From assembly GCA_903879985.1 (NCBI GenBank), contig CAIRNR010000007.1, positions 585,925-649,924 of the forward strand: 64,000 bases of DNA; not shown here. Direction: 5' to 3'. The DNA comes from an uncultured candidate division WWE3 bacterium (GTDB lineage: Bacteria > Patescibacteriota > WWE3 > UBA101185 > UBA10185). Continued below: a report on this DNA, generated by a model with database tools.

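What the first reader, a model, noticed from the sequence alone, without database searches (positions are those of the whole stretch)
26225..26681. MerR/excisionase-type HTH encoded in-frame at the N-terminus of the giant surface protein
The first about 70 residues ('NILGISPSSLRRLESEGKITSERLDNNHRAYRVEQINELKKL') look like a MerR-family DNA-binding domain. They are followed in-frame, with no stop codon, by a linker, a signal-anchor helix and then 8,600 extracellular residues. One reading is a membrane-tethered one-component regulator fused to its own cargo. The other is an unrecognised separate small regulator whose stop codon was lost, with the true giant-protein start at M84 'MYRQRLLQ' (ATG at 26432..26430). 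A perfect inverted repeat TGTACAA-N6-TTGTACA at 26862..26881 in the upstream divergent promoter is a plausible cognate operator.
Basis: partly seen in the sequence, partly recalled or inferred. Interest (0 to 1): 0.55.

Follow-up and report, generated by a model that had tools for sequence, protein, structure and literature searches.

The report, continued
Noticed in passing
window 26692..26725 (-); also L014-L029, L031 2433-2462, L032 and L033 just upstream of position 1501: A hairpin at the 5' end of the leader, just upstream of the start codon, is present in every HTH-TM family gene examined. Its sequence differs between subfamilies. It shows covariation among 13 orthologues and is absent from 20 control genes in the window. 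It may stabilise the mRNA or control translation; a role as a DNA palindrome is not excluded.
   Followed up: partly
window 26682..26690 (-): TTTCCTGCC|ATG; L014 and L023 likewise; L032 AACCTGCCC|ATG; L033, L022, L024, L025 and L029 within codons 2-6: A GC-rich motif, CCTGCC(C), sits immediately before or just after the start codon in many family members from AT-rich genomes. In some it overlaps the conserved P/A-A-Q codons. It is not a Shine-Dalgarno sequence, and its meaning is unknown.
   Followed up: no
window 26781..26800 and 26711..26730: A 20-nt direct repeat (16/20 identical, 70 nt apart) brackets the giant gene's promoter. One copy is the conserved upstream box and the other is the 5' arm of the leader hairpin. 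The same positional relationship holds in about 10 of 12 orthologous loci.
   Followed up: partly
window 27022..27807 (+): The first gene of the atp operon encodes a signal peptide, an extracytoplasmic domain of about 170 aa and a C-terminal hairpin resembling the two TM helices of a c subunit (GRNP loop). It is conserved at 43-65% identity in 13 related loci. No a-subunit gene is visible in the operon.
   Followed up: no
window 3..178 (-) and 33097..34162 (-): The usual rplK-rplA-rplJ-rplL cluster is split. The atp operon and the 26.5-kb giant gene lie between rplA and the L10 (rplJ) leader.
   Followed up: no
window 25323..27100 compared with L002/L009 (GCA_903994745.1): The strain variant has no differences across the whole intergenic region and codons 1-221. 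From codon 222 onward it differs by about 3%, almost all synonymous. This suggests a recombination boundary or a recent sweep of the promoter and N-terminal segment.
   Followed up: partly
L031 1701-1739, 2077-2115, 2133-2168, 2316-2347: Four arrays of 9-bp tandem repeats (AGATATGGG-like) lie in and around a 23S_rRNA_IVP-family gene directly upstream of the 8xHTH-TM gene. They may be coding repeats of that gene. I did not count them as operators.
   Followed up: partly
window: upstream of 35111, 36065, 36902 and 39217, among others: Genes in this genome lack Shine-Dalgarno motifs. Several have a TATAAT-like box only 5-12 nt before the ATG, which suggests leaderless or near-leaderless mRNAs.
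   Followed up: no
C-termini of the window protein (183..~1000, -) and of P0010, P0045, P0056, P0058, P0062, P0078, P0130 and P0149: A C-terminal domain ending in ...FDWW(I/L)(V/I) is shared by family members from 196 to 8,832 aa. The family therefore has conserved 'bookends' (HTH-TM at one end, this domain at the other) around a middle region of very variable length.
   Followed up: no
window 35111..35719 (+): A small Peptidase_M50 (site-2 protease-like) gene lies 8 kb from the giant gene. It would be relevant only if the HTH were released by intramembrane proteolysis. I found no evidence linking the two.
   Followed up: no
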